Assembly (NCBI GenBank): GCA_030583685.1 | Contig: CP129470.1 | Location: forward strand, 635,412 to 699,411 | Source: Candidatus Dojkabacteria bacterium | Lineage (GTDB): Bacteria; Patescibacteriota; Dojkabacteria; GCA-002793355 | Direction of reading: 5' to 3' | Length of the DNA stretch: 64,000 bases | Shown: piece by piece, positions 26,808 to 41,111 of the stretch | How positions within the stretch are numbered: the stretch's first letter is position 1 | Layout: each line of letters starts with the position of its first letter | The notes under the pieces: model-generated | The model's database searches: none | What the model was told of the DNA's origin: nothing | What the model saw: the letters and a program-made list of their open reading frames with translations, nothing else | Program-made: the position numbers and the translations under genes

Positions 26808-26809
26808 CC

Positions 26810-28825: not shown

Positions 28826-28867
28826 GGCGATTTTTCGCCACGTCTTCGTTCTCAGCGAAAAATCGCC
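28826..28867 (+). terminator. perfect 13-bp stem hairpin (GGCGATTTTTCGC ... GCGAAAAATCGCC) 16 nt after the 26810-28810 stop. No T-tract, so a doubtful intrinsic terminator
   Basis: Inverted repeat read directly from the sequence. Confidence 0.35.
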
Positions 28868-29005
28868 CTTCCCACCACAACGCATCAAGTACCTGAAGGA
28901 GCTCGAAATAGAACTTTTTTCTTACTGATATAGAATTTGATGTCATACGTAGTATTGCCCGATTCTCTTAGGGAAATGTAAGAATTGTGTAAGAAATATA
29001 GAACG

Positions 29006-29029
29006 ACATGTCATAGTGTGATGACATCA
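29006..29029. promoter_or_regulatory. cluster of TGTCAT/ATGACA palindromes (GACATGTC; TGTCAT-n6-ATGACA) 20-40 nt upstream of the XRE regulator gene, a candidate operator
   Basis: Sequence acatgtcatagtgtgatgacatca read directly. Typical of autoregulated HTH-XRE operators. Confidence 0.4.
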
Positions 29030-29048
29030 TATTTCATACATTCGACGT

Positions 29049-29636
29049 ATGAACAATAAAGAAATCGGAGCACGTATTCGTCGTGAGCGTATAAAAAAGG
29101 GCTGGTCACAGCAACAACTTGCTAAACGTGTGGGAGTGACGTGGGAAATGATTAGCAGGTATGAGCGTGGGGTTTCTTCGCCACTAAAACAACTTTTTCC
29201 CATTGCAGAAGCATTAGAATTAAACCCAAATACATTATTTGGAGTGAAAACAGATTTGGGTAACTTTGCCGATGGCAGTGCCGAGTACTTGTCGACTAGA
29301 TTTATCCCAATTCTTTCTGTCATTCCTGTCTCCTCATTTGATTTAGTACAGATGTTGCAAACAACTGACGCGGGAATGCGATTGTTCGACGATGGCCAGC
29401 AGATTGAGAAATTTGGCATTAAACTCGGTCCTGACTCGAAAATTCGCGTTGCGTCCGCTCTCCTTCTTCCAAAAGGAACGTTAATTTGTACTCTTTCGCT
29501 TGCCAATCTTTCTGAAAAATCGTTAGTATTAGTGACACGCCAAGGGTTGATTACCGTTGAACAGTATAATCCACGAGATATGAAAACCTCCGTATTAGCA
29601 AGGGTACTGGAATGGGTAGTCAAATTTGACGACTAA
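29049..29636 (+). CDS. XRE-family helix-turn-helix transcriptional regulator with an uncharacterised C-terminal domain
   Basis: HTH_3 signature IGARIRRERIKKGWSQQQLAKRVGVTWEMISRYERG. The C-terminal 120 aa lack an S24 (GDSM) peptidase motif. Confidence 0.75.
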   Translation: MNNKEIGARIRRERIKKGWSQQQLAKRVGVTWEMISRYERGVSSPLKQLFPIAEALELNPNTLFGVKTDLGNFADGSAEYLSTRFIPILSVIPVSSFDLVQMLQTTDAGMRLFDDGQQIEKFGIKLGPDSKIRVASALLLPKGTLICTLSLANLSEKSLVLVTRQGLITVEQYNPRDMKTSVLARVLEWVVKFDD

Positions 29637-29657: not shown

Positions 29658-30407
29658 GTGACAGATGCATCAACTTTTTGGCAATCGTCCTGCTTGAATA
29701 TTACAAGAGGAAGGAGTATAATAACTATGGGACAGAGCTCGCATACGCCCGCGTACAGTCGTGAAAGTAGGGAACTGGTCGATCGTATAGGAGAGGTTAT
29801 GGCTTTTGAGGATTATCTTACGACAATTTTAGCAATTCCTTTTGAACGTATTAGGTCGAAACTGCAAACTGTTTTAGAATTACGTCAATTGTTTCCAGGC
29901 TATAGACCTGACGATGCTTGGTATCAGGGATCATTGGATGGATTACATGAGTTAAAACGAATGACCTTAGCACAAGGGTTGTTTAAGATTGGTTTTGTCC
30001 GCAACAAAATTGCGAAAAGATACATTAAACCTGCCAAGGATGCGAAGAAAGAGATGATTGTAATGCTGCTATCTCAAAGGAATGCACCAAAAAAGTTGTT
30101 CGAAAGGGATGGGGAATATCAAGGGTTACATGAACTCCTCTGCCGTAATGGGAAACCCTCAATGTTTAAGATGGCTAAAATTCTTTCTGTTGTTGCTCCG
30201 ACTTTGGCAGGGGTGATTCCCCGTGAAGTCATCACCAAAGCGATAGATACGATGCACCATACACTGTATGGTGATGCTCTTCATCAATCAGTTATCGCAA
30301 CTCGTGAAAAAGTGAAGGAATGTTCGGATGTCACCGCTGTTATCTATTGGCTTGCACTGAAAATAGCAGTAAAATTACAAAAGCAAAATGACTCGGCAGT
30401 ACCCTGA
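29658..30407 (+). CDS. hypothetical protein (the true start is probably an internal Met)
   Basis: 249-aa ORF overlapping the next ORF by 20 nt. No motif. Confidence 0.45.
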   Translation: MTDASTFWQSSCLNITRGRSIITMGQSSHTPAYSRESRELVDRIGEVMAFEDYLTTILAIPFERIRSKLQTVLELRQLFPGYRPDDAWYQGSLDGLHELKRMTLAQGLFKIGFVRNKIAKRYIKPAKDAKKEMIVMLLSQRNAPKKLFERDGEYQGLHELLCRNGKPSMFKMAKILSVVAPTLAGVIPREVITKAIDTMHHTLYGDALHQSVIATREKVKECSDVTAVIYWLALKIAVKLQKQNDSAVP

Positions 30408-31224
30408 AGAAGCATTATCAATACGTGAAACAATTGATGTTGGTATTGGAATTAAGGATTTACCTAAAGTATTAGGGGATTTCACTGGTAACTTAGAAGT
30501 GACACTACCAGGGCAGTTATTAAAACACTTTGTCTCAGAACAATTTAAGGTGCATGTCTTGGCGAAATTCGAATTAGTCAAGGGAATACAAGAATTGTCC
30601 GCACTCTTTCCCGGCCTCGGAAATAATATAGAAAGAGAAACGTGGTTACGGAGATTGTTACCTGAAGATGAATGCAAAAGTCTTCAAGAGGCTATTTGTA
30701 ACGGATATTCAACGAATAATTTGTATCGTGCATTTATTGTTGGTAAAACACTTATTCAGTATGCAGATTTTGTTCTTGAAGAGTTCATGGTTCTGTTTGG
30801 AAAAAGGGAACTCCCTCCTGATTTTCCGCAAGGAAGAAAGGGTGAACTTCAAATATTCAAGGAATTATGTAGCCAACGTCGACGAGGAGAGGAAGAAGAA
30901 AAGTTTTCGCAACAAGTCTTTGCGATTATGAAGGATGGAATGTTCTATTTTAATACTATTGACCCGACAAACAGAGAATTTGTTCTGAGAAAATGGAAAA
31001 AAATCCTCATTGCTTATGCGAATAAAGCCTACGAAGGAAGACGAGACGGAAACGACTTACTTTTAGCAAAAACGCAGCAAGAAGTAATTAATAATCTCTC
31101 TCCTGGTGCAGTGTATGTGTATGCAGCAGTCATGTTATGGAAGTATCCGTTACAGTATGATGACCAGCAACCAGTACGGAATCCCTATTCGTGGATTGAA
31201 GAGGCAAGTAAGGTAGGGAATTAA
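30388..31224 (+). CDS. hypothetical protein
   Basis: 278-aa ORF co-oriented with and overlapping the previous gene. No motif. Confidence 0.45.
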   Translation: MTRQYPEEALSIRETIDVGIGIKDLPKVLGDFTGNLEVTLPGQLLKHFVSEQFKVHVLAKFELVKGIQELSALFPGLGNNIERETWLRRLLPEDECKSLQEAICNGYSTNNLYRAFIVGKTLIQYADFVLEEFMVLFGKRELPPDFPQGRKGELQIFKELCSQRRRGEEEEKFSQQVFAIMKDGMFYFNTIDPTNREFVLRKWKKILIAYANKAYEGRRDGNDLLLAKTQQEVINNLSPGAVYVYAAVMLWKYPLQYDDQQPVRNPYSWIEEASKVGN

Positions 31225-31243
31225 CCCGCTGTATTAATACGCC

Positions 31244-31272
31244 TTGACACACTTTCAAAACTCCTATACAAT
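31244..31272 (+). promoter_or_regulatory. near-consensus sigma-70-type promoter TTGACA-17-TACAAT
   Basis: TTGACA at 31244-31249, 17-nt spacer, TACAAT at 31267-31272. Confidence 0.6.
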
Positions 31273-31278
31273 CCCCTT

Positions 31279-31484
31279 TATCATGACACAGCCAGTGGTC
31301 AAAACTCAGCCCCAGGATTCCCTGTTGGTTGCGGTTGCACGGTCGTTGTCTTCTCTTATTTCCCCCATGCGTTGGGCAAAGTATCACCTTAGCCTTTCAC
31401 TCTTTGTCCTTTTTATTAAGACATCGGGGGGATAACTTTTATCAAACATAAAAAGAAAGTTAAACCCCCGAAAGGGGGTTTTTT
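31279..31484 (+). ncRNA. candidate small RNA or 5' leader/attenuator of about 200 nt, bounded by the promoter above and an intrinsic terminator
   Basis: No credible ORF: the 63-aa ORF at 31244-31435 starts inside the -35 box. The transcript ends in a strong terminator immediately (18 nt) before the next ATG. Confidence 0.4.
31462..31484 (+). terminator. Rho-independent terminator: CCCCC-GAAA-GGGGG stem-loop followed by TTTTTT
   Basis: aaacccccgaaagggggtttttt read directly. GNRA-type GAAA loop, 5-bp GC stem plus flanking A/U pairs, 6-T tract. Confidence 0.8.
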
Positions 31485-31501
31485 AGTTAATAAACATAAA
31501 A

Positions 31502-32584
31502 ATGAAAACATACCTGGTCCCAGTCCATGTGGACCCAGTAAAACCAATGAATCCGAGTCACTTGAGACATATATTGTATGTGGACTTTCTTTATAGGCAA
31601 TTTAAGGCTCTTGGTCATGACGTGGTGTATTTATACAATAGGTTGTGTTTTGATGTATCAAACCAGGTTATTAAGCTCGCAAAGTTTTTAGAATCTAGGA
31701 AAAGTAAAGTAGAAACCTCACTAGATATTGGGTTGCAGTACATTCAAATGACCTCAGAGAGATTTGAGATTGATGCTGATACCCTCTATGAAGAACGCGC
31801 ACAACAACAAACACACTTACATGGATATCCATATTATTCTATTCTGTTAGAGGATTGGAAGCGTGAGCATGAACTCTTAGACGTATTTGACCCAGGCTTT
31901 AGGTCTCCACGACGAATCAGGTTGACAGTACAAGAGGTGAGTACTGTTTTGAACGATCTTGGAGTGATATTTGACGCACGAAGAATTGATGGGAACATTT
32001 ATCTCGATTTGACTCCAGAAGGATTGCCAATGAGGAAGATTATTGGGGTGAATGAATATAGTTATAACTATTTGTTTATTGTTCTCAGGGAGCTGTTCGA
32101 GTACGTAAAGAAAGGAGATGAAGTATATTTTGTTTTTGATCCTGACTTGAGTTTAGACTATGAGTTGCTGAAGAGAGTCTTGAAAAAATACGGATGTCAC
32201 GTATTCAACCTAACAACCTCTCGGATTTCATTAGGTGGAAAAATACAATCAGCACGTAAAGGTGGATGGCAGGGATATACAACTAAAGATATTTTACATA
32301 GGTATACGCCCCGATTTTCTAGTAATAGCATAGGTCTAGCGATAAGACATTATCTTCTTGCAAAAAATGCAGTACATAAGCAATTTGATTTTTCTTATGA
32401 TGAATTTGAAAAATCGTTTGAGTTTGCACAAGCAGTTGAGAAGAAGTATGGCAGTCTTTCTTTTTCAGAGCTGATTGAAAAAGTCTATTCTCCAAATAGC
32501 GATTATTCTCCACCTTTGACGCGTAGTTTTAATATTTGGAGCACAAAAATTGAGAAAAATAAATCAAACGAGACAAAAAGATGA
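31502..32584 (+). CDS. class-I aminoacyl-tRNA-synthetase-like catalytic-domain protein (CysRS/MshC-type paralog) with a degenerate HIGH motif (HLRH)
   Basis: NPSHLRHILYVDFLYRQFKALGHDVVYLYN aligns with the CysRS/MshC pattern CHIGHaRs...D...RyLr..GydV.yv.N. A possible KMSKS-like stretch GGKIQSARKG appears at about residue 245. 360 aa, about the size of a catalytic core alone, with no anticodon-binding domain. Confidence 0.4.
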   Translation: MKTYLVPVHVDPVKPMNPSHLRHILYVDFLYRQFKALGHDVVYLYNRLCFDVSNQVIKLAKFLESRKSKVETSLDIGLQYIQMTSERFEIDADTLYEERAQQQTHLHGYPYYSILLEDWKREHELLDVFDPGFRSPRRIRLTVQEVSTVLNDLGVIFDARRIDGNIYLDLTPEGLPMRKIIGVNEYSYNYLFIVLRELFEYVKKGDEVYFVFDPDLSLDYELLKRVLKKYGCHVFNLTTSRISLGGKIQSARKGGWQGYTTKDILHRYTPRFSSNSIGLAIRHYLLAKNAVHKQFDFSYDEFEKSFEFAQAVEKKYGSLSFSELIEKVYSPNSDYSPPLTRSFNIWSTKIEKNKSNETKR

Positions 32585-33237
32585 AGGTGTCAAATCTGTA
32601 TCTCAATCAAGCGAAATTACAAGAGTACTATATGAGTCGAGTACAAGCAGCAGAATATGTTCCCGGAGAAGAGAGCAAAAATGCGATTGTAGTAATTTTA
32701 TTTGAGTATACTTTTGAAGAGTATGCACACGCATTGTTTAAATTGCATGAATCATTATTGGATGAAGAAAAAACAGTATGGCTTCAAAATTTTACGGAAA
32801 CTCATTTTCTTTTAGGGAATCCGCGTACTGTTTGTCAGAAAGATCCTGAAGACTTTGTTTATATTTCTGACGCGATTGCAGTTTCTCGACTTCTGCCAAG
32901 TAAGGTCGCAAAAGGGTACGTCTCCCGATGTCCTCGGTATTCACCAATCAAATCAAGAGTCATGCAATACGCTGCCATTTCTCAGAAGGAATCAGAAAGA
33001 CTTGAAGTGGTATTGTGTCGTTCAGATATTCCCGAAGAAATAGTGCTTATTGATTTATCTCATGTTGTCAATGAATACTTGATTAATAACCCTCTCGAGA
33101 TTGGAAAAGTGGTTAGTATTAAGTTCTTATCTGAACGAGAACAAGGTGAGGATGTGGTTTCATGGGACAGAACTCGAGTTGTATTCAATGCAGATGTAAA
33201 AGAATATGAATTAAGAGCATATATACGTGAATTCTAA
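32581..33237 (+). CDS. hypothetical protein
   Basis: 218 aa, overlaps the neighbours by 4 and 11 nt (operonic). No motif. Confidence 0.45.
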   Translation: MKVSNLYLNQAKLQEYYMSRVQAAEYVPGEESKNAIVVILFEYTFEEYAHALFKLHESLLDEEKTVWLQNFTETHFLLGNPRTVCQKDPEDFVYISDAIAVSRLLPSKVAKGYVSRCPRYSPIKSRVMQYAAISQKESERLEVVLCRSDIPEEIVLIDLSHVVNEYLINNPLEIGKVVSIKFLSEREQGEDVVSWDRTRVVFNADVKEYELRAYIREF

Positions 33238-33865
33238 TACAAAAAAATTCATAGTCCTGCTTGGCGGTGACGGAGCAGGGAAAACGTCGGTAATCAAAAA
33301 TTTGGGGCTGGATTGTTGTAGTGTCATTTCGTATTCTGAAACTCCGGTTTCCAATCGAATAGAATCTATGTGTGAAATTGAAAAGATTGTTCGCAAGGAC
33401 CTCCTCCCTCAATTTTCTACCATGTCTCCGCAGTTTAGAGTTGCAGTCTACAACTTATTTGTTGCCTATATGGCCGAGTCAATTTCTCATGAAATATGTC
33501 GAAACAATGTCATTTGCGACTCATATTATTACAAGTTCATGGCAAAGGAAATTTTATCAGGTGTCGATGCGAACCAGTTGCAGATTTGGAAAACACTCCA
33601 AAGGCCAGATGCCGTTGTGTATTTAGATGCTGATCCACGTCTTGCTTACAGAAGGATAAAAAAAACTCGTGCTATTCAAAGTAATGAAAAATTCGTAGAC
33701 GATCGAGAGGAAGAAGGATTTATTCGGTTACAAAAACGATTAAAAGAACAAATGATTGAGATTATTCGAAAATCCAATATCCCCCTCAGTCTCGTGGACG
33801 CGAACAAACCATTGAAGGATGTTTGTCTGCAAGTTCAAAATAATATTATTGAAATCTTAAAATGA
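33227..33865 (+). CDS. thymidylate-kinase-family (Tmk-like) nucleoside monophosphate kinase paralog
   Basis: Walker A KFIVLLGGDGAGKTS aligns with Tmk KYIVIEGLEGAGKTT. ICDSYYYKFMA aligns with the DRH/Y..S.AYQ region. The lid PDAVVYLDADPRLAYRRIKK aligns with PDLTLYLDV.PEV.LKR. The DR(Y/H) motif is replaced by DSY. Confidence 0.6.
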   Translation: MNSNTKKFIVLLGGDGAGKTSVIKNLGLDCCSVISYSETPVSNRIESMCEIEKIVRKDLLPQFSTMSPQFRVAVYNLFVAYMAESISHEICRNNVICDSYYYKFMAKEILSGVDANQLQIWKTLQRPDAVVYLDADPRLAYRRIKKTRAIQSNEKFVDDREEEGFIRLQKRLKEQMIEIIRKSNIPLSLVDANKPLKDVCLQVQNNIIEILK

Positions 33866-34638
33866 ATTTGGGGTTAAAAGACAAAAAAATTGTTGTTACC
33901 GGTGGTGCGAGTGGGATAGGAAAGGCAATCGCACTCGATCTCTGTAGAGAAGGAGCTTTCCCTATAATTATTGATCGTGATGAGTCTGCACTTTTACGTC
34001 TTAGGAAGGAGATAGGTGATGCAAGGATAAAAACATTTGTCTGTGATTTGTCTGATTGTTTAGAAACAAAACAGGTAATTTCACAGATTAATAAAATATT
34101 CGGAGATGAAATCTATGGCTTGGTTAACAATGCTGGAGTAAACGACGGGGTTAGTCTTTTGGACGGAATTTCCGCATTTCAGGCTTCATTACAAAGAAAC
34201 TTGATTCACTATTTTCAAATGACCAGTGGGTTGATGGAAAGTATCAAAAAAAATCAAGGGTCAATACTCAATATCTCTTCAAAAGTTGCTGAAACGGGGC
34301 AAGGAGGAACATCAGGATATGCTGCTGCAAAAGGAGCAATTAATGCGTTAACAAGAGAGTGGGCACTTGAGCTTGCGCAGTATGGAGTAGATGTAAATTG
34401 TATCGTTCCCGCTGAAGTGATAACACCTCAATATGAAAAGTGGATAAAAAACGAATCTGATTCTCGAAAAGTTCGGAACATACTTCGTAAGATTAACCTG
34501 GGAAAGCGTCTTACCAGACCAGAAGAAGTAGCAGATTTCGCAATATTCTTGCTGTCACAAAGAAACACACACACAACGGGGCAGTTAGTCTTTGTGGATG
34601 GTGGATATACGCACTTAGATGATTCAACGTCAGTATGA
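33862..34638 (+). CDS. short-chain dehydrogenase/reductase (SDR)
   Basis: TGGASGIGKAIALDL (TGxxxGIG), NNAG, and the catalytic YAAAKGA (YxxxK). 258 aa. Confidence 0.85.
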   Translation: MNLGLKDKKIVVTGGASGIGKAIALDLCREGAFPIIIDRDESALLRLRKEIGDARIKTFVCDLSDCLETKQVISQINKIFGDEIYGLVNNAGVNDGVSLLDGISAFQASLQRNLIHYFQMTSGLMESIKKNQGSILNISSKVAETGQGGTSGYAAAKGAINALTREWALELAQYGVDVNCIVPAEVITPQYEKWIKNESDSRKVRNILRKINLGKRLTRPEEVADFAIFLLSQRNTHTTGQLVFVDGGYTHLDDSTSV

Positions 34639-35297
34639 AAGAGAAGTTTATGACAAAAATCAGAAAGTTTGCAAAAGAGTGCATGGGAAAAGTTCCAGCG
34701 CACGGTTATGACCATGCTTTCCGAGTCGGAATAATGGCCCGGAATATTGCACGAAAGGAAAGCTTAAAAAAATTATACCTGTATGAAATCGCAGGTCTTC
34801 TGCATGATATTGGGTTGGATTTTCCCGACAGGTCAAAACACGGGGAGATTGGAGCAAAGAAAGCTTACAGCTTCTTGAGACAAGAGACGGATTTGTCTAT
34901 CACAGAATTATCTGAAATTACGTATGCGATTTCTTATCACAACCGGAAGCTATCAGCACCAAAGCATTCTCTTATACTTGATGTTCTTGCAGACGCTGAT
35001 ACGTTAGATTTATTGGGGGCAATAGGGATTTGGAGAGGAATCCAATCTCGTGCAGATGCTAATCTCCCTTCTCCGAGACAAGTAGCAGCTGCGATGAATC
35101 GATTTGAAGAGTATAACAAGAGCCGGAAAGATAAACGCGAAAACAACACGCATAGTATTGCTGAACAAATTAATTTTCAGATTCAATCTGCCAAGATAAT
35201 TACAACAAGTACGGGTAAAAAGATGGCAGAACCTTTACTTGCAACAATGAGGCATTTCCGATACATGATTGTCGAAGAGTTAACCCAATCTAAGTAG
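34635..35297 (+). CDS. HD-domain metal-dependent phosphohydrolase
   Basis: H...HD motif: HGYDHAFRV ... LLHDIGL. 220 aa. Confidence 0.65.
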   Translation: MKEKFMTKIRKFAKECMGKVPAHGYDHAFRVGIMARNIARKESLKKLYLYEIAGLLHDIGLDFPDRSKHGEIGAKKAYSFLRQETDLSITELSEITYAISYHNRKLSAPKHSLILDVLADADTLDLLGAIGIWRGIQSRADANLPSPRQVAAAMNRFEEYNKSRKDKRENNTHSIAEQINFQIQSAKIITTSTGKKMAEPLLATMRHFRYMIVEELTQSK

Positions 35298-35301
35298 CAT
35301 T

Positions 35302-35502
35302 ATGAACGAATTTCTTGATTCACACATCCCTTTGTGGAAGTATAAGAAGAAAGATTACTTCTTTGAAAAGTATCTTTTGAGAATTGGAAACGCCGAAAAG
35401 CTCTTTTGTGGTGGAGTTTTAGTTCAGGTACGACAAGGTAGGAATGAAACAGTTTACAGAAACTTATATACGGTATTTTTGACAGAATATGGTGAAATAT
35501 AA
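35302..35502 (+). pseudogene. decayed duplicate of the N-terminus of the amidohydrolase gene at 36736
   Basis: MNEFLDSHIPLWKY...CGGVLVQVRQGRNETVY against MNIIDTHIHLWKY...SGGVLVQARQSGEETEF of the ORF at 36736-37581. The metal-binding His is replaced (HIHLW to HIPLW) and the copy is truncated at 66 aa. Confidence 0.5.
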
Positions 35503-36739
35503 AGAAAATATGACTTCACAGGGCGGAATTGGCATAATTCCGGAGCAAGTGCTTTTGGCGCTTTTGGAGTATTCTCTTAATAGAAGTGTATTGACTAATA
35601 AGGCAGGTCTGATGGTTAAGATGAGTTATGGGAATGAGAGGGTATTTGCTGGTCGATATGGATTGCTTGCTGAGTGTCCTTTTGATACAAGATTCCCAGT
35701 GGGTTCTATCTCAAAGGTTAAGGTGTTAGGAGAAATTCTTAGCCTCGTATCAGAAGGCAAAGTAGTGCTAAACGAGCAGATTAAGGCCTACTTACCATGG
35801 TTAGCTGACTCAGCTGTTGGACAAAAACAAATTTTCACAATTTTTAACCATAGTACTGGACTATCAAGAGATGGTCTCTGGGGGAATGGTATAACACCAG
35901 AATATCCATCTGAAGTTGAGTTGAGGGCATATGTACGGGAATGCTCACTTGTTGAGGACATTGTGTGGAAGTATTCAAACATCGGCTTCGAGATAGCTCG
36001 TATGATTATTGAAAGTGTAACAGGGCGAGTGTATCCAAACTCTTTGTCAAGGAAAAACGATTTGCAAGTCTCTTTGTATGGTTTTGCTGATGAGGGAAGT
36101 TTGATTGCAGTACCTCATGAAGATCCCAAAGCTATGACTGCTTCTATTGGGCAATACATGTCTCTCGATGAAATTATTACGCTTTACCAATCTACAGTGC
36201 AGAAATATTCGAAGTTCATCTTTGATGAGCAATATCGAGTCGAACGTGCACCAGAACCTGTTTGGTTACTTGGTGTTTCTGAATGGCAAGATGTAAAGGA
36301 GGAGGTATATCATGGTCACCAAGGAAATGGATATGGATACTCTGTAAAAGTCGCAGTGACGCAGAGCTTAGAACACAGTGTCGTGATTTTCAGTAATGTC
36401 ATAAAGTACCCAGTGCATGAGATTTCAAACAAGCTTCTGCGAATCGCTAAACTGCTTTCTGCTACAAAACTAAAGAGCGCAGTAGGCTGGAAGGTGACGA
36501 AATTTCAGAATCGTACCTTAGCTCTCCTTGTTGCATATAACAGTGAGAGTGCGTTCTTCTTTCGTGAGGGAAATCATACTTTTTACGATTGGGTGATGCA
36601 GGCGGATGGGGATATTACCACTGGAGCTCTCATAAATAGAGGAGGAACTAATGCATTTATAGGAGAAATTGCAACAATTAATCAGGAGGAATTGACGATT
36701 GGTCCGTATAAACTTGAGAAAAAGAATAAGTTATTATGA
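35489..36739 (+). CDS. beta-lactamase-fold serine hydrolase (class C beta-lactamase / D-aminopeptidase / esterase superfamily)
   Basis: SxxK active-site motif in the typical context FPVGSISKVKVLGEIL. 416 aa. Confidence 0.6.
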   Translation: MVKYKENMTSQGGIGIIPEQVLLALLEYSLNRSVLTNKAGLMVKMSYGNERVFAGRYGLLAECPFDTRFPVGSISKVKVLGEILSLVSEGKVVLNEQIKAYLPWLADSAVGQKQIFTIFNHSTGLSRDGLWGNGITPEYPSEVELRAYVRECSLVEDIVWKYSNIGFEIARMIIESVTGRVYPNSLSRKNDLQVSLYGFADEGSLIAVPHEDPKAMTASIGQYMSLDEIITLYQSTVQKYSKFIFDEQYRVERAPEPVWLLGVSEWQDVKEEVYHGHQGNGYGYSVKVAVTQSLEHSVVIFSNVIKYPVHEISNKLLRIAKLLSATKLKSAVGWKVTKFQNRTLALLVAYNSESAFFFREGNHTFYDWVMQADGDITTGALINRGGTNAFIGEIATINQEELTIGPYKLEKKNKLL

Positions 36740-37581
36740 ATATCATTGATACACATATTCATCTTTGGAAGTATATTCCTGAGCAGTATTCATGGATTAC
36801 GGAGGAGATGAAAGTACTTAAGCAGGATTTCCTGTATTCACAGTATAAACAGCAAGTAAAGAGTTCTGGAGGAGTCCTTGTTCAAGCCAGACAGTCAGGG
36901 GAGGAGACTGAATTTCTGTGTGGTATCGCAAATCAGTATAATGATGTTATCGCAGTTGTTGGTTGGATGGATTACCAAGAGGATGAGCCTTCACAAATGA
37001 TAGCAAGAATTAAAGAACAACCACAATATGCAAAACTGACTGGTTTTCGACATTTAGTTCAAGATGAGCCTGATTTGAGATTTATGCTTCAGGAAAAGTT
37101 TAGATCATACCTTGAGCTACTTGCTAAGGAGAACTATACCTATGATGTTCTTATTCGCTCCCATCAAATGAAACAGTTTCTTGAGTATTTGCATACAACC
37201 GAGACTAATAAACAACCTGTGCTGGTTTTGGATCATATTGCAAAACCTGTTATTGGGGGACCTAAAGAATTATTTAACAAATGGCAACAGGACATACGGG
37301 AAATTGCGAAACACGAGAATGTGAATTGTAAGATATCTGGACTCTTAACAGAAGCGAGTACCGGTTCAACTCCAATTTTCACTCCATATCTTGAGGTAGT
37401 GCTTGAAGCTTTCGGAGTCGACCGACTCGTTTTGGGATCTGATTGGCCAGTGTGTACTTTGAGAGGGTCGGGGACTCAATCACTTTCGGTTTCTGTAGAT
37501 TTCTTGCAAGCCAATCTTGTTCAATCTGATTTAGAAAAAATACTTAATTTAAATGCCATACGGATATATGGAAAAAATTAG
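36736..37581 (+). CDS. TIM-barrel metal-dependent amidohydrolase (Amidohydro_2 / COG3618-like)
   Basis: N-terminal metal-binding motif IDTHIHLW. 281 aa. A paralogous fragment lies at 35302. Confidence 0.6.
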   Translation: MNIIDTHIHLWKYIPEQYSWITEEMKVLKQDFLYSQYKQQVKSSGGVLVQARQSGEETEFLCGIANQYNDVIAVVGWMDYQEDEPSQMIARIKEQPQYAKLTGFRHLVQDEPDLRFMLQEKFRSYLELLAKENYTYDVLIRSHQMKQFLEYLHTTETNKQPVLVLDHIAKPVIGGPKELFNKWQQDIREIAKHENVNCKISGLLTEASTGSTPIFTPYLEVVLEAFGVDRLVLGSDWPVCTLRGSGTQSLSVSVDFLQANLVQSDLEKILNLNAIRIYGKN

Positions 37582-39304
37582 TAACGTAATCGCTGCGCCA
37601 CAATTATCCGACTATTTTGTTTCTCATGCTGAAATTGAATATCTTTATGATGGAGAGGGAGAAAATTCTGGTGCTATAGATCCTAATGCTCTATCTGCGG
37701 GAGGTGGACCATTTATTTTTCGAATGATTTTAAGATTTGTCGATACAAGTCGGGCCGTTGCATCAGAAATTCCTAATAGATTGCAACAAACATTAAAGCA
37801 AGTTCTGCCTTCGATGGGAAATCAAGCGATTCAAGAGTTGAACTCGCAAATTGTTAGTCATTTGGAGCGGATGGGTATAAATTCTCTAGAGTCATTCGAA
37901 TATCTTGAGAAGAAAATTATCGAAAAGATGCCTGATATTCTTGAACTTTACAACAATACAGCACTGATTCAACGTTTGAACGGATTGTTTGAAACGGAAT
38001 ATGGAATCGTTTGGTTCGCACCAAAATTGTGGAGGGAATATAAACTGCGCCAGATAGAGCTTTTCTTAAAAGCAGTGAGACAAGGGAAGCAAATAGGTCC
38101 TTTTGCAGCTGATTTTAACAAAAATATGAAAGCGTATCTTGATACTCTTTGCCAAACGCTTGAACCAATTCCACCCGAGTATGTTACATTTGATGTTGAA
38201 TGGGAAACTGACTTTAGTTACTACGTTGCCTATAAAAAGAGTCAGGAAGGTGTTATTATACGAGTATTGATGGATTTGCACTCCAATAGTGGCTTGTTTG
38301 CTGAGATCCCATTACAAGCAATCCTTGCTCCATACGGAAAGAAACGATACAACGATGTTTATGGACTACTACTTGAATCTGATGCAGGGGTACAGGAAAG
38401 GAACGGTTTTAGATATACGAATCATAAATGTAAGATCATAATTGAGGAAGGTGGGCGAAAAGAACTTTGTTTCTCTTCTGGCATCATGATTAAGCTTGCA
38501 GATTCTGTTACAACAACACGCGAGGCTATCCAAGGAGATTTTAAGCAATATGCATATCTTTGGGAATGGTTCGATAAATCAAAGTTTGATTACTCACGGG
38601 ATAGTCATCGAAAGATGTATCTCTCAAGTTTTTTAAATGCAAAATCTGGATTTTTCGAAATTTTCAAGTATGCTCAGGAAAAATATGGTATTTCGTTGAA
38701 GTATCCAAAAACGAATGTGTTTGGGAAGAAAAGTATTCCAAATATGGACGGTTACTCTGAGTTTGTCAATATTAAAGATGGTGGCTGGTGTTCTACTGGA
38801 GGAAAACATGTACACCTTGTTAAAAAGGAGCACCTTAAGAGAGATGTTGAGAAATTACATTATCCTGGTTACCTTGTGCAGATACATATACCTTCACTTC
38901 TTTTTATTCATGAGGATGGAACAAAATATCATGGACACGCACGAAAAGTTTCGATTGTCAATCGAAGTGGTGACATTGTTCATCTCGGTTTCTTCTTGCG
39001 TATGGTTGAAGAGAGTAAAGGAAACAGTTCAGGTTACCGAGCTTATCGTATGGTATTTAATGATGAAGGGAATTTCATTGTTTCGTATAGAACTGGGGGA
39101 GAACCACAAACATACTTGTCGCTTGAGGAAACAAAACTCAAGCCATTAGTAAGCGATTTGAAAGCATTTCTAATTGAGGTAAAACAGGAATGGCATAAAC
39201 AAATTTATGCATTAAATAAATTTGTTGCAGAAGAAGATGTGCCAGCTTTTGTCGCACAACTCGTAAAAGATGGTAAACTGTCAAAGAGATATTTAATAAG
39301 TTAA
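37553..39304 (+). CDS. large hypothetical protein (583 aa) with no recognisable motif
   Basis: Long uninterrupted ORF co-oriented within the enzyme cluster. Contains the Cys/His-containing stretch GGWCSTGGKHVHLV...HYPGY...HGH, but no assignable family. Confidence 0.55.
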   Translation: MPYGYMEKISNVIAAPQLSDYFVSHAEIEYLYDGEGENSGAIDPNALSAGGGPFIFRMILRFVDTSRAVASEIPNRLQQTLKQVLPSMGNQAIQELNSQIVSHLERMGINSLESFEYLEKKIIEKMPDILELYNNTALIQRLNGLFETEYGIVWFAPKLWREYKLRQIELFLKAVRQGKQIGPFAADFNKNMKAYLDTLCQTLEPIPPEYVTFDVEWETDFSYYVAYKKSQEGVIIRVLMDLHSNSGLFAEIPLQAILAPYGKKRYNDVYGLLLESDAGVQERNGFRYTNHKCKIIIEEGGRKELCFSSGIMIKLADSVTTTREAIQGDFKQYAYLWEWFDKSKFDYSRDSHRKMYLSSFLNAKSGFFEIFKYAQEKYGISLKYPKTNVFGKKSIPNMDGYSEFVNIKDGGWCSTGGKHVHLVKKEHLKRDVEKLHYPGYLVQIHIPSLLFIHEDGTKYHGHARKVSIVNRSGDIVHLGFFLRMVEESKGNSSGYRAYRMVFNDEGNFIVSYRTGGEPQTYLSLEETKLKPLVSDLKAFLIEVKQEWHKQIYALNKFVAEEDVPAFVAQLVKDGKLSKRYLIS

Positions 39305-39316
39305 TAAAACTTTCTG

Positions 39317-40651
39317 ATGAAACTTTATGAAAATTACCAAAAATCGTTACAGGAGCTGGTTGCATTACAATCCATTTCTACTGACCCAACTTTTGCGCAG
39401 GGCATTGAGGACACCGTTCAGTGGCTCGTTTCGTACTTTGAAAAAAATGGCTTCTCTGTAGAGCGAGTAGATGGATATGGCAACCCGATTGTTGTCGCAC
39501 GGTATACCGTTGCGCCTGAAAAAGAAACCTATTTTGTGTACGGACACTACGATGTACAGCCTGCTTCTCAGGAAGACGGTTGGGAGAGTGATCCTTTCTC
39601 TTTGACGGAGCGTGATGGAAAGTTATACGGACGCGGAGTTGTTGATAATAAAGGGCAATTTATGGTGCATTTAACCAGTATTGTTGCTTTGATTGAAGAG
39701 GGAAAACTTGAAAAGAATGTTGTGTTTGTTGTTGAAGGAGATGAGGAAACCGGTGGCGAAGGCATCACGAAACTTTTTGAGGCACGACCCGAGTTATTCA
39801 AGGCAGATCAATATATTATTTCAGACGGAGAAATGCCGTACAAACCTGTAATCACTGCTTCTTTCCGAGGGACCTTTAATATCACCGCAAAAATTACGAC
39901 TGCTGCAAATAACTTGCACTCTGGTCTGTATGGCGGCGCAGCACCAAGTGCCACAGTTGTTGCGTCAAAACTGGTTGCGGGCATGTATGACGATGAGAAC
40001 AGACTGGCGATTACTGGATTCTATAATAACGATTTGGTCGCAGATGAAGTTGAAATGCAACTTTGTCGTGACATGGATGCAGTGAAGACAGCAACTCTTG
40101 AGCAAACTGGCGTGAAAAAATGGTTTACTGGCCCAAACAACTCATTCTGTGAAGTCGTTGGCTTTACCACTATGGTGGTTCCTTCTGGAATTTCAAGTGG
40201 CTATACCGGCAGTGGTTACTCAAACATTGTGCCTGCCTCTGCGCTGATCAAGATGAATGTCAGAATCGCAGCAAATCAGACGGTTGAACAAGTGAAAACG
40301 TTGCTTGAGCACTACTTTGCAAAAAATACTCCAGAATACGCAACAACGGAGCTGATTGAAATGCAGAGCAATAATGAACCAATCAAGGTGAATATTAACT
40401 CAGATATGCACAAAAGAACTATTCAATTGCTCGAGGAAGTCTATGGAGACAAGGTATTGATTGACTATTGTGGTGCAACTCTTCCGGTGGTAATTGATAT
40501 CAAACGCGTTTTTGGTGCTGATCCCGTACTGATTTCTTTGGCGAATGATGATTGTAATATGCATGGAGTCAATGAGAATTACGATATCGAGCTCTTGAAG
40601 AAAGGATTGGAGTTTTCTTACCGATTGTTTGGCGGGAATAGTAATGGGTGA
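39317..40651 (+). CDS. M20-family metallopeptidase (dipeptidase/ArgE/DapE-like)
   Basis: Metal-binding motifs GHYDVQPA, VDNKGQ and EGDEETGG. 444 aa. Confidence 0.75.
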   Translation: MKLYENYQKSLQELVALQSISTDPTFAQGIEDTVQWLVSYFEKNGFSVERVDGYGNPIVVARYTVAPEKETYFVYGHYDVQPASQEDGWESDPFSLTERDGKLYGRGVVDNKGQFMVHLTSIVALIEEGKLEKNVVFVVEGDEETGGEGITKLFEARPELFKADQYIISDGEMPYKPVITASFRGTFNITAKITTAANNLHSGLYGGAAPSATVVASKLVAGMYDDENRLAITGFYNNDLVADEVEMQLCRDMDAVKTATLEQTGVKKWFTGPNNSFCEVVGFTTMVVPSGISSGYTGSGYSNIVPASALIKMNVRIAANQTVEQVKTLLEHYFAKNTPEYATTELIEMQSNNEPIKVNINSDMHKRTIQLLEEVYGDKVLIDYCGATLPVVIDIKRVFGADPVLISLANDDCNMHGVNENYDIELLKKGLEFSYRLFGGNSNG

Positions 40652-41111
40652 GTATTTAGAAGGTAGTTTCTTCTCTCGAGTTCATGAGATTGAAAGGTAT
40701 GAAGGAAGTCAGCTTGTGCTATGCTCGATGTCAGAACAAAACAGGTTTACCTTAGCACTTACACAGAAAACAGGTAAAAAACACCTTATTGCCGCCAAGG
40801 TCGTAATTGAGGTCTCCGCTCCGAGTTCTTTTCCTATACCACAAGACCATCTAAGAAGCTTACAAATGTATAATAGAATAGCTAGCTATGCTTTTAAATC
40901 GTATAAAATAGAGAAAGGGTATGGTAGCTATTTGTGGAAAAAAGCAGATGAGTGGGTGAAAATGCAACGCCTTCCTGTATTTATTGAAGATACTAATCCT
41001 ATGTCATCAGCCGGATGGACAAGTGCAATGATAATAAAGTTGCATCCTAACGCTCAATATCTTGGAAAGAATGAAAGAGGAAACCACACATGGATATACA
41101 ATAAGAAATAA
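40629..41111 (+). CDS. hypothetical protein
   Basis: 160-aa ORF overlapping the M20 gene's 3' end. No motif. Confidence 0.35.
   Translation: MAGIVMGEYLEGSFFSRVHEIERYEGSQLVLCSMSEQNRFTLALTQKTGKKHLIAAKVVIEVSAPSSFPIPQDHLRSLQMYNRIASYAFKSYKIEKGYGSYLWKKADEWVKMQRLPVFIEDTNPMSSAGWTSAMIIKLHPNAQYLGKNERGNHTWIYNKK

What the first reader, a model, noticed from the sequence alone, without database searches (positions are those of the whole stretch)
31244..31484. Orphan promoter-terminator unit with no ORF: candidate small RNA or riboswitch-like attenuator
A near-consensus promoter (TTGACA-17-TACAAT) is followed about 190 nt later by a textbook intrinsic terminator (CCCCC-GAAA-GGGGG-TTTTTT) that ends 18 nt before the ATG of the aaRS-like gene. 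The only ORF in between starts inside the -35 box, so it cannot be expressed from this promoter. Two readings follow: a discrete roughly 200-nt sRNA, or a regulatory leader whose terminator gates read-through into the downstream cluster. The segment contains a GUUG-rich tract (gttggttgcggttgcacggtcgttgtc) and a G-run (gggggg) that could pair with the terminator's C-run as an anti-terminator.
Basis: seen in the sequence. Interest (0 to 1): 0.65.

Follow-up and report, generated by a model that had tools for sequence, protein, structure and literature searches.

The report
Leader attenuator with hidden short ORF

Summary
The promoter (TTGACA-17-TACAAT, 31244-31272) and the terminator (31462-31484) are real. 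The promoter is the only such match in 64 kb (0.08 expected). The "no ORF" claim is wrong: an in-frame ATG at 31283, 10 nt after the -10 box, opens a 50-codon ORF whose UAA lies inside the G-run segment.

Only four lineages of this element could be found, all from Candidatus Dojkabacteria or unnamed metagenome contigs. All four keep the promoter, the ATG spacing, a 50-52-codon frame, an invariant AUG-YGU-UGG exactly 22 codons before the stop, the stop, the terminator and the ArgRS-like gene.

The element evolves as RNA and not as protein: synonymous divergence is 0.11 against 0.79 in the adjacent gene, and there is no third-position bias. In every lineage the ORF's last codons plus stop are the best partner of the terminator's 5' arm. 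One C-to-U change in that arm is matched by G-to-A changes in both partner strands.

Best reading: a transcription attenuator, probably set by ribosome position on the leader ORF, gating an 11-gene operon. Four sequences give almost no statistical covariation, and the sensed signal is unknown. It is a new member of a known kind, of moderate interest.

The parts
31244..31249 (+). -35 hexamer TTGACA
   Evidence: Kept as TTGAC[AT] in all four lineages. Similarity between L006 and L007, and between the two L006-type strain backgrounds, begins at or a few nt before this hexamer.
31267..31272 (+). -10 hexamer TACAAT, 17-nt spacer
   Evidence: The other lineages have TACAAT, TAAAAT and AACAAT, always with a 17-nt spacer. 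The CTCCT just upstream is invariant.
31280..31280 (+). Predicted transcription start (inferred): the conserved A at the 8th nt after the -10 box, giving a 5' UTR of about 3 nt
   Evidence: Inference from the usual -10-to-start distance. The A is conserved in all lineages. Not measured.
31283..31435 (+). Leader ORF: 50 codons plus TAA (MTQPVVKTQPQDSLLVAVARSLSSLISPMRWAKYHLSLSLFVLFIKTSGG*)
   Evidence: The ATG lies exactly 10 nt after the -10 box and the frame is open for 50-52 codons in all four lineages. Combined chance of staying open in three deep lineages is about 8e-4. The peptide sequence evolves almost neutrally.
31285..31350 (+).
   Evidence: The MFE topology is the same in all four lineages, with a few compensated pairs (A-U to U-G; C-G to U-A). 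Stability is unremarkable, z from -0.45 to -2.2. Moderate support only.
31353..31366 (+). Segment 1: C/U-rich tract (CUCUUAUUUCCCCC), candidate anti-anti-terminator strand that can pair with segment 2
   Evidence: The best upstream partner of segment 2 lies in this zone, starting 14-24 nt before the invariant AUG, in all lineages (-14.3/-13.7, -10.9, -7.2, -7.2 kcal/mol). The gap to runners-up is small. Inconclusive.
31367..31375 (+). Invariant AUG-YGU-UGG (Met-Arg/Cys-Trp): alternative start of a 22-codon leader peptide, or a candidate stall site
   Evidence: Invariant in alignments A3 and A7. Exactly 22 codons from this AUG to the stop in every lineage. It sits in a run of low-usage codons, and Cys, Trp and Met are among the four least-used amino acids in the window's genes.
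31376..31423 (+). 48-nt spacer, G-poor and C/U-rich, predicted to be largely unpaired
   Evidence: 3-6 G against 12-16 C out of 48 nt in all lineages. Mostly unpaired in the L005, L006 and L007 folds, partly paired in the window fold.
31425..31437 (+). Segment 2: CGGGGGG-A-UAACU, the last codons of the leader ORF, its stop codon and 2 more nt; 5' strand of the anti-terminator
   Evidence: CGGG and UAACU are invariant. The G-to-A change here matches the C-to-U change in segment 3.
31458..31470 (+). Segment 3: AGUUA-AA-CCCCC-G, shared strand; pairs with segment 2 (anti-terminator) or segment 4 (terminator)
   Evidence: GUUAAACC is invariant.
31462..31484 (+). Intrinsic terminator: AAACCCCC-GAAA-GGGGGUUU plus U-run
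   Evidence: Hairpin energies are -13.9, -15.1, -8.5 and -7.9 kcal/mol in the four lineages. One compensated pair, C-G to U-A.
31502..41111 (+). Regulated operon of 11 tightly packed or overlapping genes: ArgRS-like 360 aa, DUF6182, dTMP-kinase-like, SDR, HD hydrolase, 66 aa, beta-lactamase fold, amidohydrolase_2, 583 aa unknown, M20 peptidase, 160 aa unknown
   Evidence: The first gene's fold matches arginyl-tRNA synthetases (4q2t_A, E 2e-6, TM 0.47). The same gene order follows the element in the other loci as far as their DNA extends.
29049..29636 (+). XRE-family HTH regulator, syntenic with the operon; a possible second, DNA-level control (association only)
   Evidence: Pfam HTH_3, E 5e-11. 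53% identical to the HTH gene directly upstream of the element in L018. ATGACAT/ATGTCAT repeats lie in its own upstream region.

Best explanation
The segment is the 5' leader of an 11-gene operon (31502-41111) and works as a transcription attenuator. A strong sigma-70-type promoter starts an RNA of about 205 nt that can fold in two mutually exclusive ways. In one, segment 3 (31458-31470) pairs with segment 4 to form the intrinsic terminator (31462-31484), and transcription stops 17 nt before the first gene. In the other, segment 3 pairs with segment 2 (31425-31437) to form a two-helix anti-terminator, and RNA polymerase reads on into the operon. Segment 2 consists of the last codons and the UAA of a conserved leader ORF. 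That ORF is 50 codons from the near-leaderless AUG at 31283, or 22 codons from the invariant internal AUG at 31367. The likely logic follows. A ribosome that translates to the stop covers segment 2, so the terminator forms and the operon is off. A ribosome that is absent, or delayed upstream, leaves segment 2 free, so the anti-terminator forms and the operon is on. A plausible delay site is the invariant low-usage Met-Arg/Cys-Trp codons, where a ribosome would also cover the competing segment 1. Shown here: the parts, their conservation, RNA-level constraint, and the complementarity. Inferred: the transcription start, translation of the ORF, coupling of ribosome position to folding, and the signal sensed.
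For: The promoter and terminator are real, and each is unique in the window. The whole architecture is kept in four lineages whose downstream protein is only 42-46% identical: hexamers, a 17-nt spacer, ATG exactly 10 nt after the -10 box, a 50-52-codon open frame, 22 codons from the invariant AUG-YGU-UGG to the stop, then 66-69 nt to the gene. Between L006 and L007 the element is 83-100% identical per 30-nt window from the -35 box to the terminator and 73% in the last window, which runs into the gene start. The gene averages about 69%, and nothing upstream aligns. Synonymous divergence is 0.113 in the ORF against 0.788 in the gene (Fisher p = 3e-15). There is no third-position bias (5/4/4; 30/32/28). 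Non-synonymous divergence between L005 and L006 is 0.545 against 0.258 in the gene. The sequence is therefore constrained as RNA while the peptide drifts. The best partner of the terminator's 5' arm anywhere in the leader is the site 10-11 nt before the stop in all four lineages: -17.6, -13.2, -10.2 and -10.2 kcal/mol, against -5.3 to -6.3 for the next non-overlapping site. Shuffled versions of segment 2 almost never pair as well. Folds of the transcript cut just before the 3' arm form this helix in every lineage, and the full-length conformers differ by only 2-6 kcal/mol. RNAalifold picks the anti-terminator as the consensus. A C-to-U change in the shared strand is matched by G-to-A in both partner strands. 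UAACU and AGUUA are invariant, which a plain stop codon and a pre-terminator spacer would not explain. The frame staying open in three deep lineages has P of about 8e-4. The genome barely uses Shine-Dalgarno sequences (7 of 53 genes), and many operon-first genes have a -10 box 5-8 nt before the ATG, so 5'-end initiation is plausible here. No other promoter was found between the terminator and the gene. Leaderless short ORFs acting as attenuators have precedent in mycobacteria (bioRxiv 10.1101/834739).
Against: Only four independent sequences exist. The formal covariation count is indistinguishable from shuffles (score 0.088 against 0.087; one compensated pair). Support rests mostly on invariance and on 85.5% of cells paired against 57-59% when the partner is slid by one column. 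There are no tandem codons for any amino acid, which are the hallmark of classical amino-acid attenuators. The ATG is 10 nt from the -10 box, not 5-8 nt as in this genome's apparent leaderless genes, so a UTR of about 3 nt has to be assumed. The start codon is paired within hairpin H1. The segment 1:segment 2 pairing is weak and poorly separated from alternatives. The other two frames are also stop-poor, so openness alone is modest evidence. The high nucleotide identity between L006 and L007 could partly reflect recombination of the cassette, since the same element occurs in two upstream contexts. There are no expression data.
Confidence: 0.55

Rival explanations
1. A ribosome-independent attenuator: a new riboswitch, or a leader that binds a protein or tRNA. 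The 5' hairpin domain and the invariant CCAUGYGUUGG core would sense a ligand or factor and select between the same anti-terminator and terminator. The open frame would be incidental.
For: There is strong nucleotide-level constraint, including at synonymous sites. The 5' hairpin topology is conserved with some compensated pairs and sequesters the AUG. The peptide sequence is essentially unconstrained. The R/C toggle (CGU/UGU) after the internal AUG occurs in both clades, as expected if only a pyrimidine matters. The other frames are also stop-poor. The downstream gene is aaRS-like, a class often controlled by RNA leaders (general knowledge).
Against: No Rfam family, T-box included, matches even at E of 1-10 in any lineage. 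The frame is open in all lineages (P about 8e-4). The ATG is invariant at a fixed 10 nt from the -10 box, the length difference between lineages is a multiple of three, and the distance to the stop is fixed at 22 codons. The stop codon lies inside the anti-terminator strand. The 5' domain is no more stable than shuffled sequence in two lineages.
Confidence: 0.25
2. An independent small-protein gene of 50-52 aa, for example a precursor or scaffold peptide or a small membrane protein used by the downstream enzymes. A leaky terminator would set the peptide-to-enzyme ratio, as in many precursor-plus-enzyme operons.
For: Start, frame and stop are conserved. A few residues are invariant: M1, Q3, V5, M29, W31, K33, G49. 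The ORF always precedes the same enzyme cluster, which includes an aaRS-like ligase and peptidases. A hairpin between a precursor gene and its enzymes is a known design (general knowledge).
Against: BLASTP finds no similarity between the peptides of different lineages. pN is about equal to pS, there is no third-position bias, and pN is twice that of the neighbouring gene. Synonymous sites are seven times more conserved than in the gene, which protein coding alone cannot explain. No RiPP-type maturation enzyme was found by Pfam or NCBIfam. No gene caller called this ORF in any locus.
Confidence: 0.1
3. A stand-alone, trans-acting small RNA of about 200 nt with its own promoter and terminator, functionally unrelated to the downstream genes.
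For: There is a strong promoter, a canonical terminator and RNA-level conservation. The window transcript folds better than shuffles, z = -3.0. Terminated attenuator RNAs can act in trans, as rnTrpL does (PMC6614838, listed).
Against: The element is always directly upstream of, and co-oriented with, the same operon. Only 17-25 nt and no detectable promoter separate the terminator from the first gene. A conserved anti-terminator would have no purpose for a plain sRNA. No second copy and no detached copy was found in the window, the fetched loci, GTDB or viral contigs.
Confidence: 0.05
4. Chance juxtaposition: a promoter-like match plus the terminator of the upstream genes, with no regulatory role.
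For: Consensus scans give many promoter-like hits: 10 found against 13.9 expected in a 5-kb region. The upstream genes lack a terminator of their own before the leader.
Against: An exact match of this quality is expected 0.08 times per window. Every part is conserved at fixed spacing across lineages whose flanking gene is saturated at synonymous sites.
Confidence: 0.02

Closest known systems
Classical leader-peptide transcription attenuators (E. coli trpL; the his, leu, thr, ilv and pheA leaders)
   Same: A promoter-proximal leader that ends in an intrinsic terminator just before the first gene. An anti-terminator shares a strand with the terminator. There is a candidate third pairing, segment 1 with segment 2. 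A short ORF is placed so that a ribosome at its stop covers segment 2. Weak sub-threshold Rfam hits to Trp_leader and Phe_leader came mainly from the terminator.
   Different: No run of codons for any one amino acid. The ORF is 50-52 codons (or 22), against 14-32 in the classical cases. There is no Shine-Dalgarno sequence, and the start is near-leaderless. The stop codon lies inside segment 2 and not before it. The regulated operon is not a recognisable amino-acid biosynthesis pathway. No Rfam model matches.
Leaderless short-ORF attenuators of mycobacteria (polycysteine LL-sORFs; bioRxiv 10.1101/834739)
   Same: A short ORF at the very 5' end of a polycistronic transcript. Its translation is proposed to control the downstream genes through RNA pairing that involves the ORF's 3' end.
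   Different: The mycobacterial Ms5788A example acts on translation by occluding a Shine-Dalgarno sequence and carries consecutive Cys codons. Here there is no Shine-Dalgarno sequence and no Cys run, and an intrinsic terminator with an anti-terminator is present. The predicted 5' UTR is about 3 nt and not 0.
uORF-plus-terminator leaders that sense translation stress (for example the whiB7 leader, cited in 10.1101/834739; also the erm and ABC-F resistance leaders, from my own knowledge)
   Same: A long leader with a translated uORF followed by an intrinsic terminator. Slowed translation favours read-through, and the peptide sequence is only partly conserved.
   Different: No resistance regulator or resistance gene lies downstream. 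Nothing here shows an antibiotic response. The comparison rests on architecture alone.
Metabolite-sensing arrest peptides (TnaC, SpeFL), from my own knowledge
   Same: A leader peptide with a few invariant residues at fixed spacing from the stop (M29, W31, K33, G49). A C-rich, G-poor stretch lies next to the stop region.
   Different: Those systems act by blocking Rho at a rut site through a ribosome stalled at the stop. Here a ribosome at the stop would favour the intrinsic terminator. The invariant residues also lie in RNA-constrained sequence, so a role for the peptide is unproven.
Attenuator-derived sRNAs (rnTrpL of Sinorhizobium meliloti; PMC6614838, listed)
   Different: There is no evidence here for a trans target. 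This would be a secondary role at most.

Membership tests
Leader-peptide transcription attenuators (trp/his/leu/pheA type) | Promoter-proximal leader that ends in an intrinsic terminator directly upstream of the first structural gene | tested here: met
   The arrangement is kept in all four lineages.
Leader-peptide transcription attenuators (trp/his/leu/pheA type) | Anti-terminator that shares a strand with the terminator, so the two are mutually exclusive | tested here: met
   The homologous site is the top duplex partner in all four lineages. It forms in folds cut before the 3' arm. It is the RNAalifold consensus. There is a three-way matched change. Statistical covariation is not significant with 4 sequences.
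Leader-peptide transcription attenuators (trp/his/leu/pheA type) | Anti-anti-terminator (1:2) pairing | tested here: inconclusive
   The best partner of segment 2 falls in the homologous C/U tract in all lineages, but the energies (-7 to -14 kcal/mol) and the gaps to runners-up are small.
Leader-peptide transcription attenuators (trp/his/leu/pheA type) | Short leader ORF whose stop places a terminating ribosome on segment 2 | tested here: met
   A conserved ORF ends with its UAA inside segment 2 in all lineages. This is met as a sequence feature only; translation itself cannot be tested with these tools.
Leader-peptide transcription attenuators (trp/his/leu/pheA type) | Tandem regulatory codons for the cognate amino acid | tested here: not met
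   No amino-acid run is shared between lineages. Only single Met, Trp and Lys codons are invariant.
Leader-peptide transcription attenuators (trp/his/leu/pheA type) | Read-through responds to charged-tRNA supply or ribosome stalling | not testable with these tools
   Needs expression or in vitro coupled assays.
Mycobacterial leaderless-sORF attenuators (bioRxiv 10.1101/834739) | The transcript begins at the start codon of the sORF | tested here: inconclusive
   The ATG is a fixed 10 nt after the -10 box, against 5-8 nt for this genome's apparent leaderless genes. No transcription-start data exist.
Mycobacterial leaderless-sORF attenuators (bioRxiv 10.1101/834739) | Consecutive Cys codons, and occlusion of the downstream Shine-Dalgarno sequence | tested here: not met
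   At most one Cys codon. The downstream gene has no Shine-Dalgarno sequence, and the genome largely lacks them. An intrinsic terminator is present instead.
Known riboswitch or T-box classes (Rfam 15) | Match to a curated covariance model | tested here: not met
   No hit at gathering score in 64 kb. Only sub-threshold, terminator-driven hits at E up to 10. Nothing recurs in L005, L007 or L010.
Arrest-peptide sensors (TnaC/SpeFL type) | Conserved nascent-peptide residues at fixed distance from the stall site, next to a Rho-loading site | tested here: inconclusive
   M29, W31, K33 and G49 are invariant at fixed spacing. The spacer is C-rich and G-poor. However, the invariant codons also lie in RNA-constrained sequence, and the presence of Rho was not examined.
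RiPP or scaffold-peptide precursor genes | Peptide under purifying selection, with dedicated maturation enzymes | tested here: not met
   pN is about equal to pS with no third-position bias. No BLASTP similarity between lineages. No RiPP enzyme families found.

The most novel reading that the evidence does not exclude
The leader is not a simple translation-speed sensor. It could be a new sensing class that switches on an orphan ArgRS-like enzyme pathway in an epibiotic ultrasmall bacterium. One option is a metabolite-responsive arrest peptide, with the invariant Met-x-Trp-x-Lys and penultimate Gly acting in the exit tunnel, as in TnaC or SpeFL. The other is a new riboswitch whose aptamer is the 5' hairpin plus the CCAUGYGUUGG core. 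Either would give a first handle on what signal, possibly host-derived, these organisms respond to.
Probability: 0.18. Interest if true: 0.7.

Novelty: new member of a known kind. Interest (0 to 1): 0.4.

Why it matters
A 2024 perspective describes gene regulation in Patescibacteria (CPR) as essentially uncharacterised (PMC11665869). I found no paper describing an attenuator in this group, although the check was limited to a few keyword searches of an open-access library. This leader would therefore be a concrete, testable example of conditional transcription termination in a CPR genome. It also suggests that translation-coupled control can operate in a genome that almost lacks Shine-Dalgarno sequences and appears to rely on leaderless initiation. 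It marks an 11-gene operon of unknown function as conditionally expressed. That operon is headed by an extremely rare ArgRS-like protein, with four protein clusters among 5.8 billion, so finding the inducing condition could help identify the pathway. In practical terms, gene callers miss the leader ORF, and in one lineage they extend the downstream gene by 51 codons through the terminator.

Tried and rejected
- **Known RNA families.** The Rfam gathering scan of the window found nothing. Sensitive scans of the leader and of three divergent loci gave only sub-threshold hits driven by the terminator. No tRNA or tmRNA gene was found.
- **More sequences.**
  - Two protein searches found 2 and then 4 clusters.
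  - One GTDB protein-pattern scan found nothing.
  - One GTDB DNA-pattern scan found only the MAG already in hand.
  - One viral scan found nothing.
  - One metagenome scan added 2 loci.
  - Nineteen loci collapse to four element lineages.
- **Paralogues or a regulon.** A covariance model found exactly one copy per locus and no second copy in the window.
- **Functional small protein.** Rejected on BLASTP and on codon-level evolution.
  - My first dN/dS run used off-by-one coordinates for the small ORFs of L005 and L007.
  - Only its results for the 360-aa gene are valid. One search replaces the small-ORF figures.
- **Defence system.** PADLOC gave no meaningful hits.
- **Sequence search of the 360-aa protein against PDB chains.** Nothing significant. 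Only the fold search identified it.
- **Minus-strand 85-codon GTG ORF (31130-31387).** It overlaps the upstream gene and was not pursued.
- **Column-based covariation on MAFFT alignments.** A 1-nt indel in the stem is misplaced, so the pairs were registered by hand. The formal count shows no significant covariation.
- **Operator for the XRE regulator at the leader's start.** The CATGACAC motif only resembles the repeats upstream of the HTH gene. This stays speculative.
Full report

Yes for the two signals. TTGACA (31244-31249), a 17-nt spacer and TACAAT (31267-31272) match 11 of 12 consensus positions. This is the only match to TTGACA-N16-18-TAYAAT in the 64-kb window, with 0.08 expected by chance. 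The hairpin AAACCCCC-GAAA-GGGGGUUU (31462-31481) is followed by a 6-U run ending at 31484. It is unique in the window even with three mismatches allowed. It ends 17 nt before the ATG at 31502.

The TTG ORF that starts in the -35 box has an in-frame ATG at 31283, 10 nt after the -10 hexamer. That opens a 50-codon ORF (31283-31435) whose TAA directly follows the G-run.

**2. Where the window comes from and how rare the locus is**

The window is bacterial chromosome, with PNPase, RNase J and an MFS transporter upstream. Members of the protein clusters that hold the downstream 360-aa protein are named Candidatus Dojkabacteria, a CPR/Patescibacteria lineage. One sits on an 888,748-nt MAG contig.

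The 360-aa protein is extremely rare:

- Two, then four, protein clusters among 5.8 billion.
- No Pfam, NCBIfam or PDB sequence match.
- An AlphaFold model (pLDDT 69.8) best matches arginyl-tRNA synthetase catalytic cores (4q2t_A, E 2e-6, TM 0.47), then MetRS.

It heads 11 tightly packed genes (31502-41111), and convergent genes follow.

Nineteen related loci were retrieved. They collapse to four lineages of the upstream element: window with L004, L005, the L006 group and the L007 group. Later scans of GTDB genomes and viral contigs with a DNA pattern added nothing new.

**3. What is conserved**

The downstream protein is only 42-46% identical between lineages. Even so, all four keep the following:

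- -35 TTGAC[AT], a 17-nt spacer and a -10 box.
- An ATG exactly 10 nt after the -10 box.
- An open frame of 50 or 52 codons.
- An invariant AUG-YGU-UGG exactly 22 codons before the stop.
- CGGG...UAACU at the stop.
- 18-21 nt, then GUUAAACC, the hairpin and the U-run.
- The gene ATG 66-69 nt after the stop.

The element's left edge is sharp. L006 and L007 lose all similarity a few nt upstream of the -35 box. The identical L006-type element also sits behind two unrelated upstream sequences in different strains.

**4. How it evolves**

| Measure | Leader ORF | Adjacent 360-aa gene |
|---|---|---|
| pS, L006 vs L007 | 0.113 | 0.788 (Fisher p = 3e-15) |
| pN, L006 vs L007 | 0.075 | 0.177 |
| Differences by codon position, L006 vs L007 | 5 / 4 / 4 | 86 / 55 / 197 |
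| pN, L005 vs L006 | 0.545 | 0.258 |
| Differences by codon position, L005 vs L006 | 30 / 32 / 28 | 120 / 80 / 232 |

- Between L006 and L007 the element is 83-100% identical per 30-nt window from the -35 box to the terminator, and 73% in the last window, which runs into the gene start. The gene averages about 69%.
- BLASTP finds no similarity between the peptides of different lineages.
- The DNA is therefore constrained as nucleotide sequence, while the peptide drifts almost neutrally.
- Yet the frame stays open. The combined shuffle probability for three deep lineages is about 8e-4, or 0.02 and 0.04 for the two halves taken separately.
- This pattern fits a regulatory leader ORF, where the act of translation matters and the product does not. 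It argues against a functional small protein.
- Recombination of the cassette could contribute to the high identity. However, differences cluster in codons 6-16 (24 of 33 positions identical) against codons 17 to stop (107 of 111), which suggests uneven constraint.

**5. RNA structures**

*Terminator.* Hairpin energies are -13.9, -15.1, -8.5 and -7.9 kcal/mol in the four lineages. One pair is compensated, C-G to U-A.

*Anti-terminator.*

- The ORF's last codons plus stop (CGGGxx-N-UAACU, window 31425-31437) pair with AGUUA-AA-CCyCC(C)G (31458-31470) as two helices.
- Scanning the whole leader, this site is the best partner of the terminator's 5' arm in all four lineages: -17.6, -13.2, -10.2 and -10.2 kcal/mol. 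The next non-overlapping site scores -5.3 to -6.3.
- Shuffled versions of segment 2 almost never pair as well.
- The helix forms in every lineage when the transcript is folded up to the terminator loop.
- It is the RNAalifold consensus for the module.
- Full-length conformers differ by only 2-6 kcal/mol. The anti-terminator is the MFE in the window (-61.1 against -58.8), L006 and L007. The terminator is the MFE in L005.
- The C-to-U change in the shared strand is matched by G-to-A in both partner strands.
- UAACU and AGUUA are invariant.

*Caveat.* With four distinct sequences the formal covariation score equals the shuffled mean (0.088 against 0.087). Support comes from invariance and from 85.5% of cells paired against 57-59% when the partner is slid by one column.

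*Weaker features.*

- A C/U-rich tract before the internal AUG (31353-31366) is the best upstream partner of segment 2 in all lineages, but not decisively so.
- A 5' hairpin (31285-31350) pairs the AUG region and the invariant GUG in every lineage, with a few compensated pairs. Its stability is ordinary, z from -0.45 to -2.2.

**6. Could the ORF be translated?**

- Only 7 of 53 genes in the window match even a lenient Shine-Dalgarno motif.
- Many operon-first genes have a TATAAT-like box 5-8 nt before the ATG, so leaderless initiation looks routine in this genome.
- The leader ORF's fixed 10-nt gap implies a UTR of about 3 nt, starting at a conserved A. This is an inference.
- The invariant internal AUG, which gives 22 codons in every lineage, is an alternative start. 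The data do not separate the two.
- UCC-CCN-AUG-YGU-UGG is a run of low-usage codons. Cys, Trp and Met are among the four least-used amino acids in the window's genes.

**7. Proposed mechanism**

*Shown:* a conserved leader with a terminator, and an anti-terminator whose 5' strand is the end of a conserved ORF.

*Inferred:*

- A ribosome that reaches the UAA covers segment 2 but not segment 3, which begins 23 nt after the stop codon ends. The terminator then forms and the operon is off.
- A ribosome that is absent or delayed upstream leaves segment 2 free. The anti-terminator forms and RNA polymerase reads into the 11 genes. The Met-Arg/Cys-Trp site is a plausible place for such a delay, because a ribosome there would also cover segment 1.
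- No promoter-like site lies between the terminator and the gene, so the operon appears to depend on read-through.
- The signal is unknown. Amino-acid scarcity or general translation stress are the simplest guesses.

**8. Rivals**

| Reading | Confidence | Main point |
|---|---|---|
| Ribosome-independent riboswitch or factor-binding leader using the same switch | about 0.25 | Favoured by RNA-level constraint. Disfavoured by the conserved frame, start and stop, and by the lack of any Rfam match. |
| Functional small protein with a leaky terminator | about 0.1 | Disfavoured. |
| Stand-alone sRNA | about 0.05 | Possible only as a by-product. |
| Chance | about 0.02 | Excluded by conservation. 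|

**9. Comparison with known systems**

- It works like the classical leader-peptide attenuators such as trpL. However, it lacks tandem regulatory codons, has a much longer ORF without a Shine-Dalgarno sequence, and has its stop inside segment 2.
- It resembles the mycobacterial leaderless-sORF attenuators (bioRxiv 10.1101/834739). However, it uses an intrinsic terminator and not Shine-Dalgarno occlusion.
- It is not a member of any Rfam family.
- A few keyword searches of an open-access paper library turned up no description of an attenuator in Patescibacteria. A 2024 perspective calls regulation in this group virtually unknown (PMC11665869).

**10. Verdict**

This is a real, conserved cis-regulatory leader. 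It is a new member of a known kind, of moderate interest. The main limits are the small number of lineages, the absence of expression data and the unknown signal.

Noticed in passing
window, whole (start regions of 53 ORFs): The genome barely uses Shine-Dalgarno sequences: 7 of 53 genes match a lenient motif. Many operon-first genes have a TATAAT-like box only 5-8 nt before the ATG (for example 17046, 41128-42567 on the minus strand, 50031, 47322), so leaderless mRNAs look common.
   Followed up: partly
window 31502-41111: An 11-gene operon of unknown function is headed by an ArgRS-fold protein found in only four protein clusters among 5.8 billion. The other genes are DUF6182, dTMP-kinase-like, SDR, HD hydrolase, a 66-aa protein, beta-lactamase fold, amidohydrolase_2, a 583-aa unknown, M20 peptidase and a 160-aa unknown. 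No defence-system signature was found.
   Followed up: partly
L002 and L003, position 1 (= window 31455): Two independent assemblies (DRR779146, DRR779145) carry the identical gene. Both contigs break at the same base, just 5' of the terminator, which hints at strain variation or a repeat boundary there.
   Followed up: no
L006/L008/L009/L015 versus L013/L014/L018/L019, upstream of CTAGGATGATTTGACA: The identical L006-type element and gene sit behind two unrelated upstream sequences. In the first group every contig ends about 130-270 nt upstream of the -35 box. This suggests a recombination or assembly breakpoint at the promoter's edge.
   Followed up: partly
window 28929-29038; L018 1940-2030; window 31281-31290: ATGACAT/ATGTCAT-type inverted repeats lie upstream of the XRE-family HTH gene in two lineages. 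The leader's start (CATGACAC, CATGACGC or CATGTCAC) resembles them, so it could be an operator overlapping the transcription start. The HTH protein is 53% identical between lineages, more than the ArgRS-like protein.
   Followed up: partly
L006/L008 250-1488 (P0003, P0005): JGI and ENA gene calls extend the 361-aa gene upstream by 51 codons, through the terminator and into the leader, to give 412 aa. NCBI calls it at 361 aa. The extension is probably an annotation artefact, because the window has an in-frame TAG at 31484-31486.
   Followed up: partly
window 31439-31454 and 31487-31502: A 16-nt direct repeat (TTATCAAACATAAAAA and TTAATAAACATAAAAA) flanks the terminator. The sequence before the hairpin therefore mimics the sequence before the gene's ATG. 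It is only loosely kept in other lineages.
   Followed up: no
window 29658-31224: Two genes with no family match (249 and 278 aa) lie between the HTH gene and the leader in this lineage. They are absent in L013 and L018, where the HTH gene directly precedes the leader. The gene upstream in L005 shows only marginal similarity to the 278-aa protein.
   Followed up: partly
window 28826-28867: A perfect 13-nt inverted repeat (GGCGATTTTTCGC / GCGAAAAATCGCC) lies just after the 666-aa Baseplate_J-like gene. It may terminate the upstream operon.
   Followed up: no
window 25542-28810: An actin-like ATPase (FtsA/PilM/MreB hits) is followed by a 666-aa protein with a Baseplate_J-like region. The pairing is conserved next to the HTH gene in L013 and L018. 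This is odd for a small CPR genome.
   Followed up: no
window 31376-31423: The 48-nt stretch between the invariant UGG and the G-run is G-poor (3-6 G) and C-rich (12-16 C) in all lineages. It is mostly unpaired in the L005, L006 and L007 folds and partly paired in the window fold. The composition resembles a Rho-loading site, but whether the genome encodes Rho was not checked.
   Followed up: no
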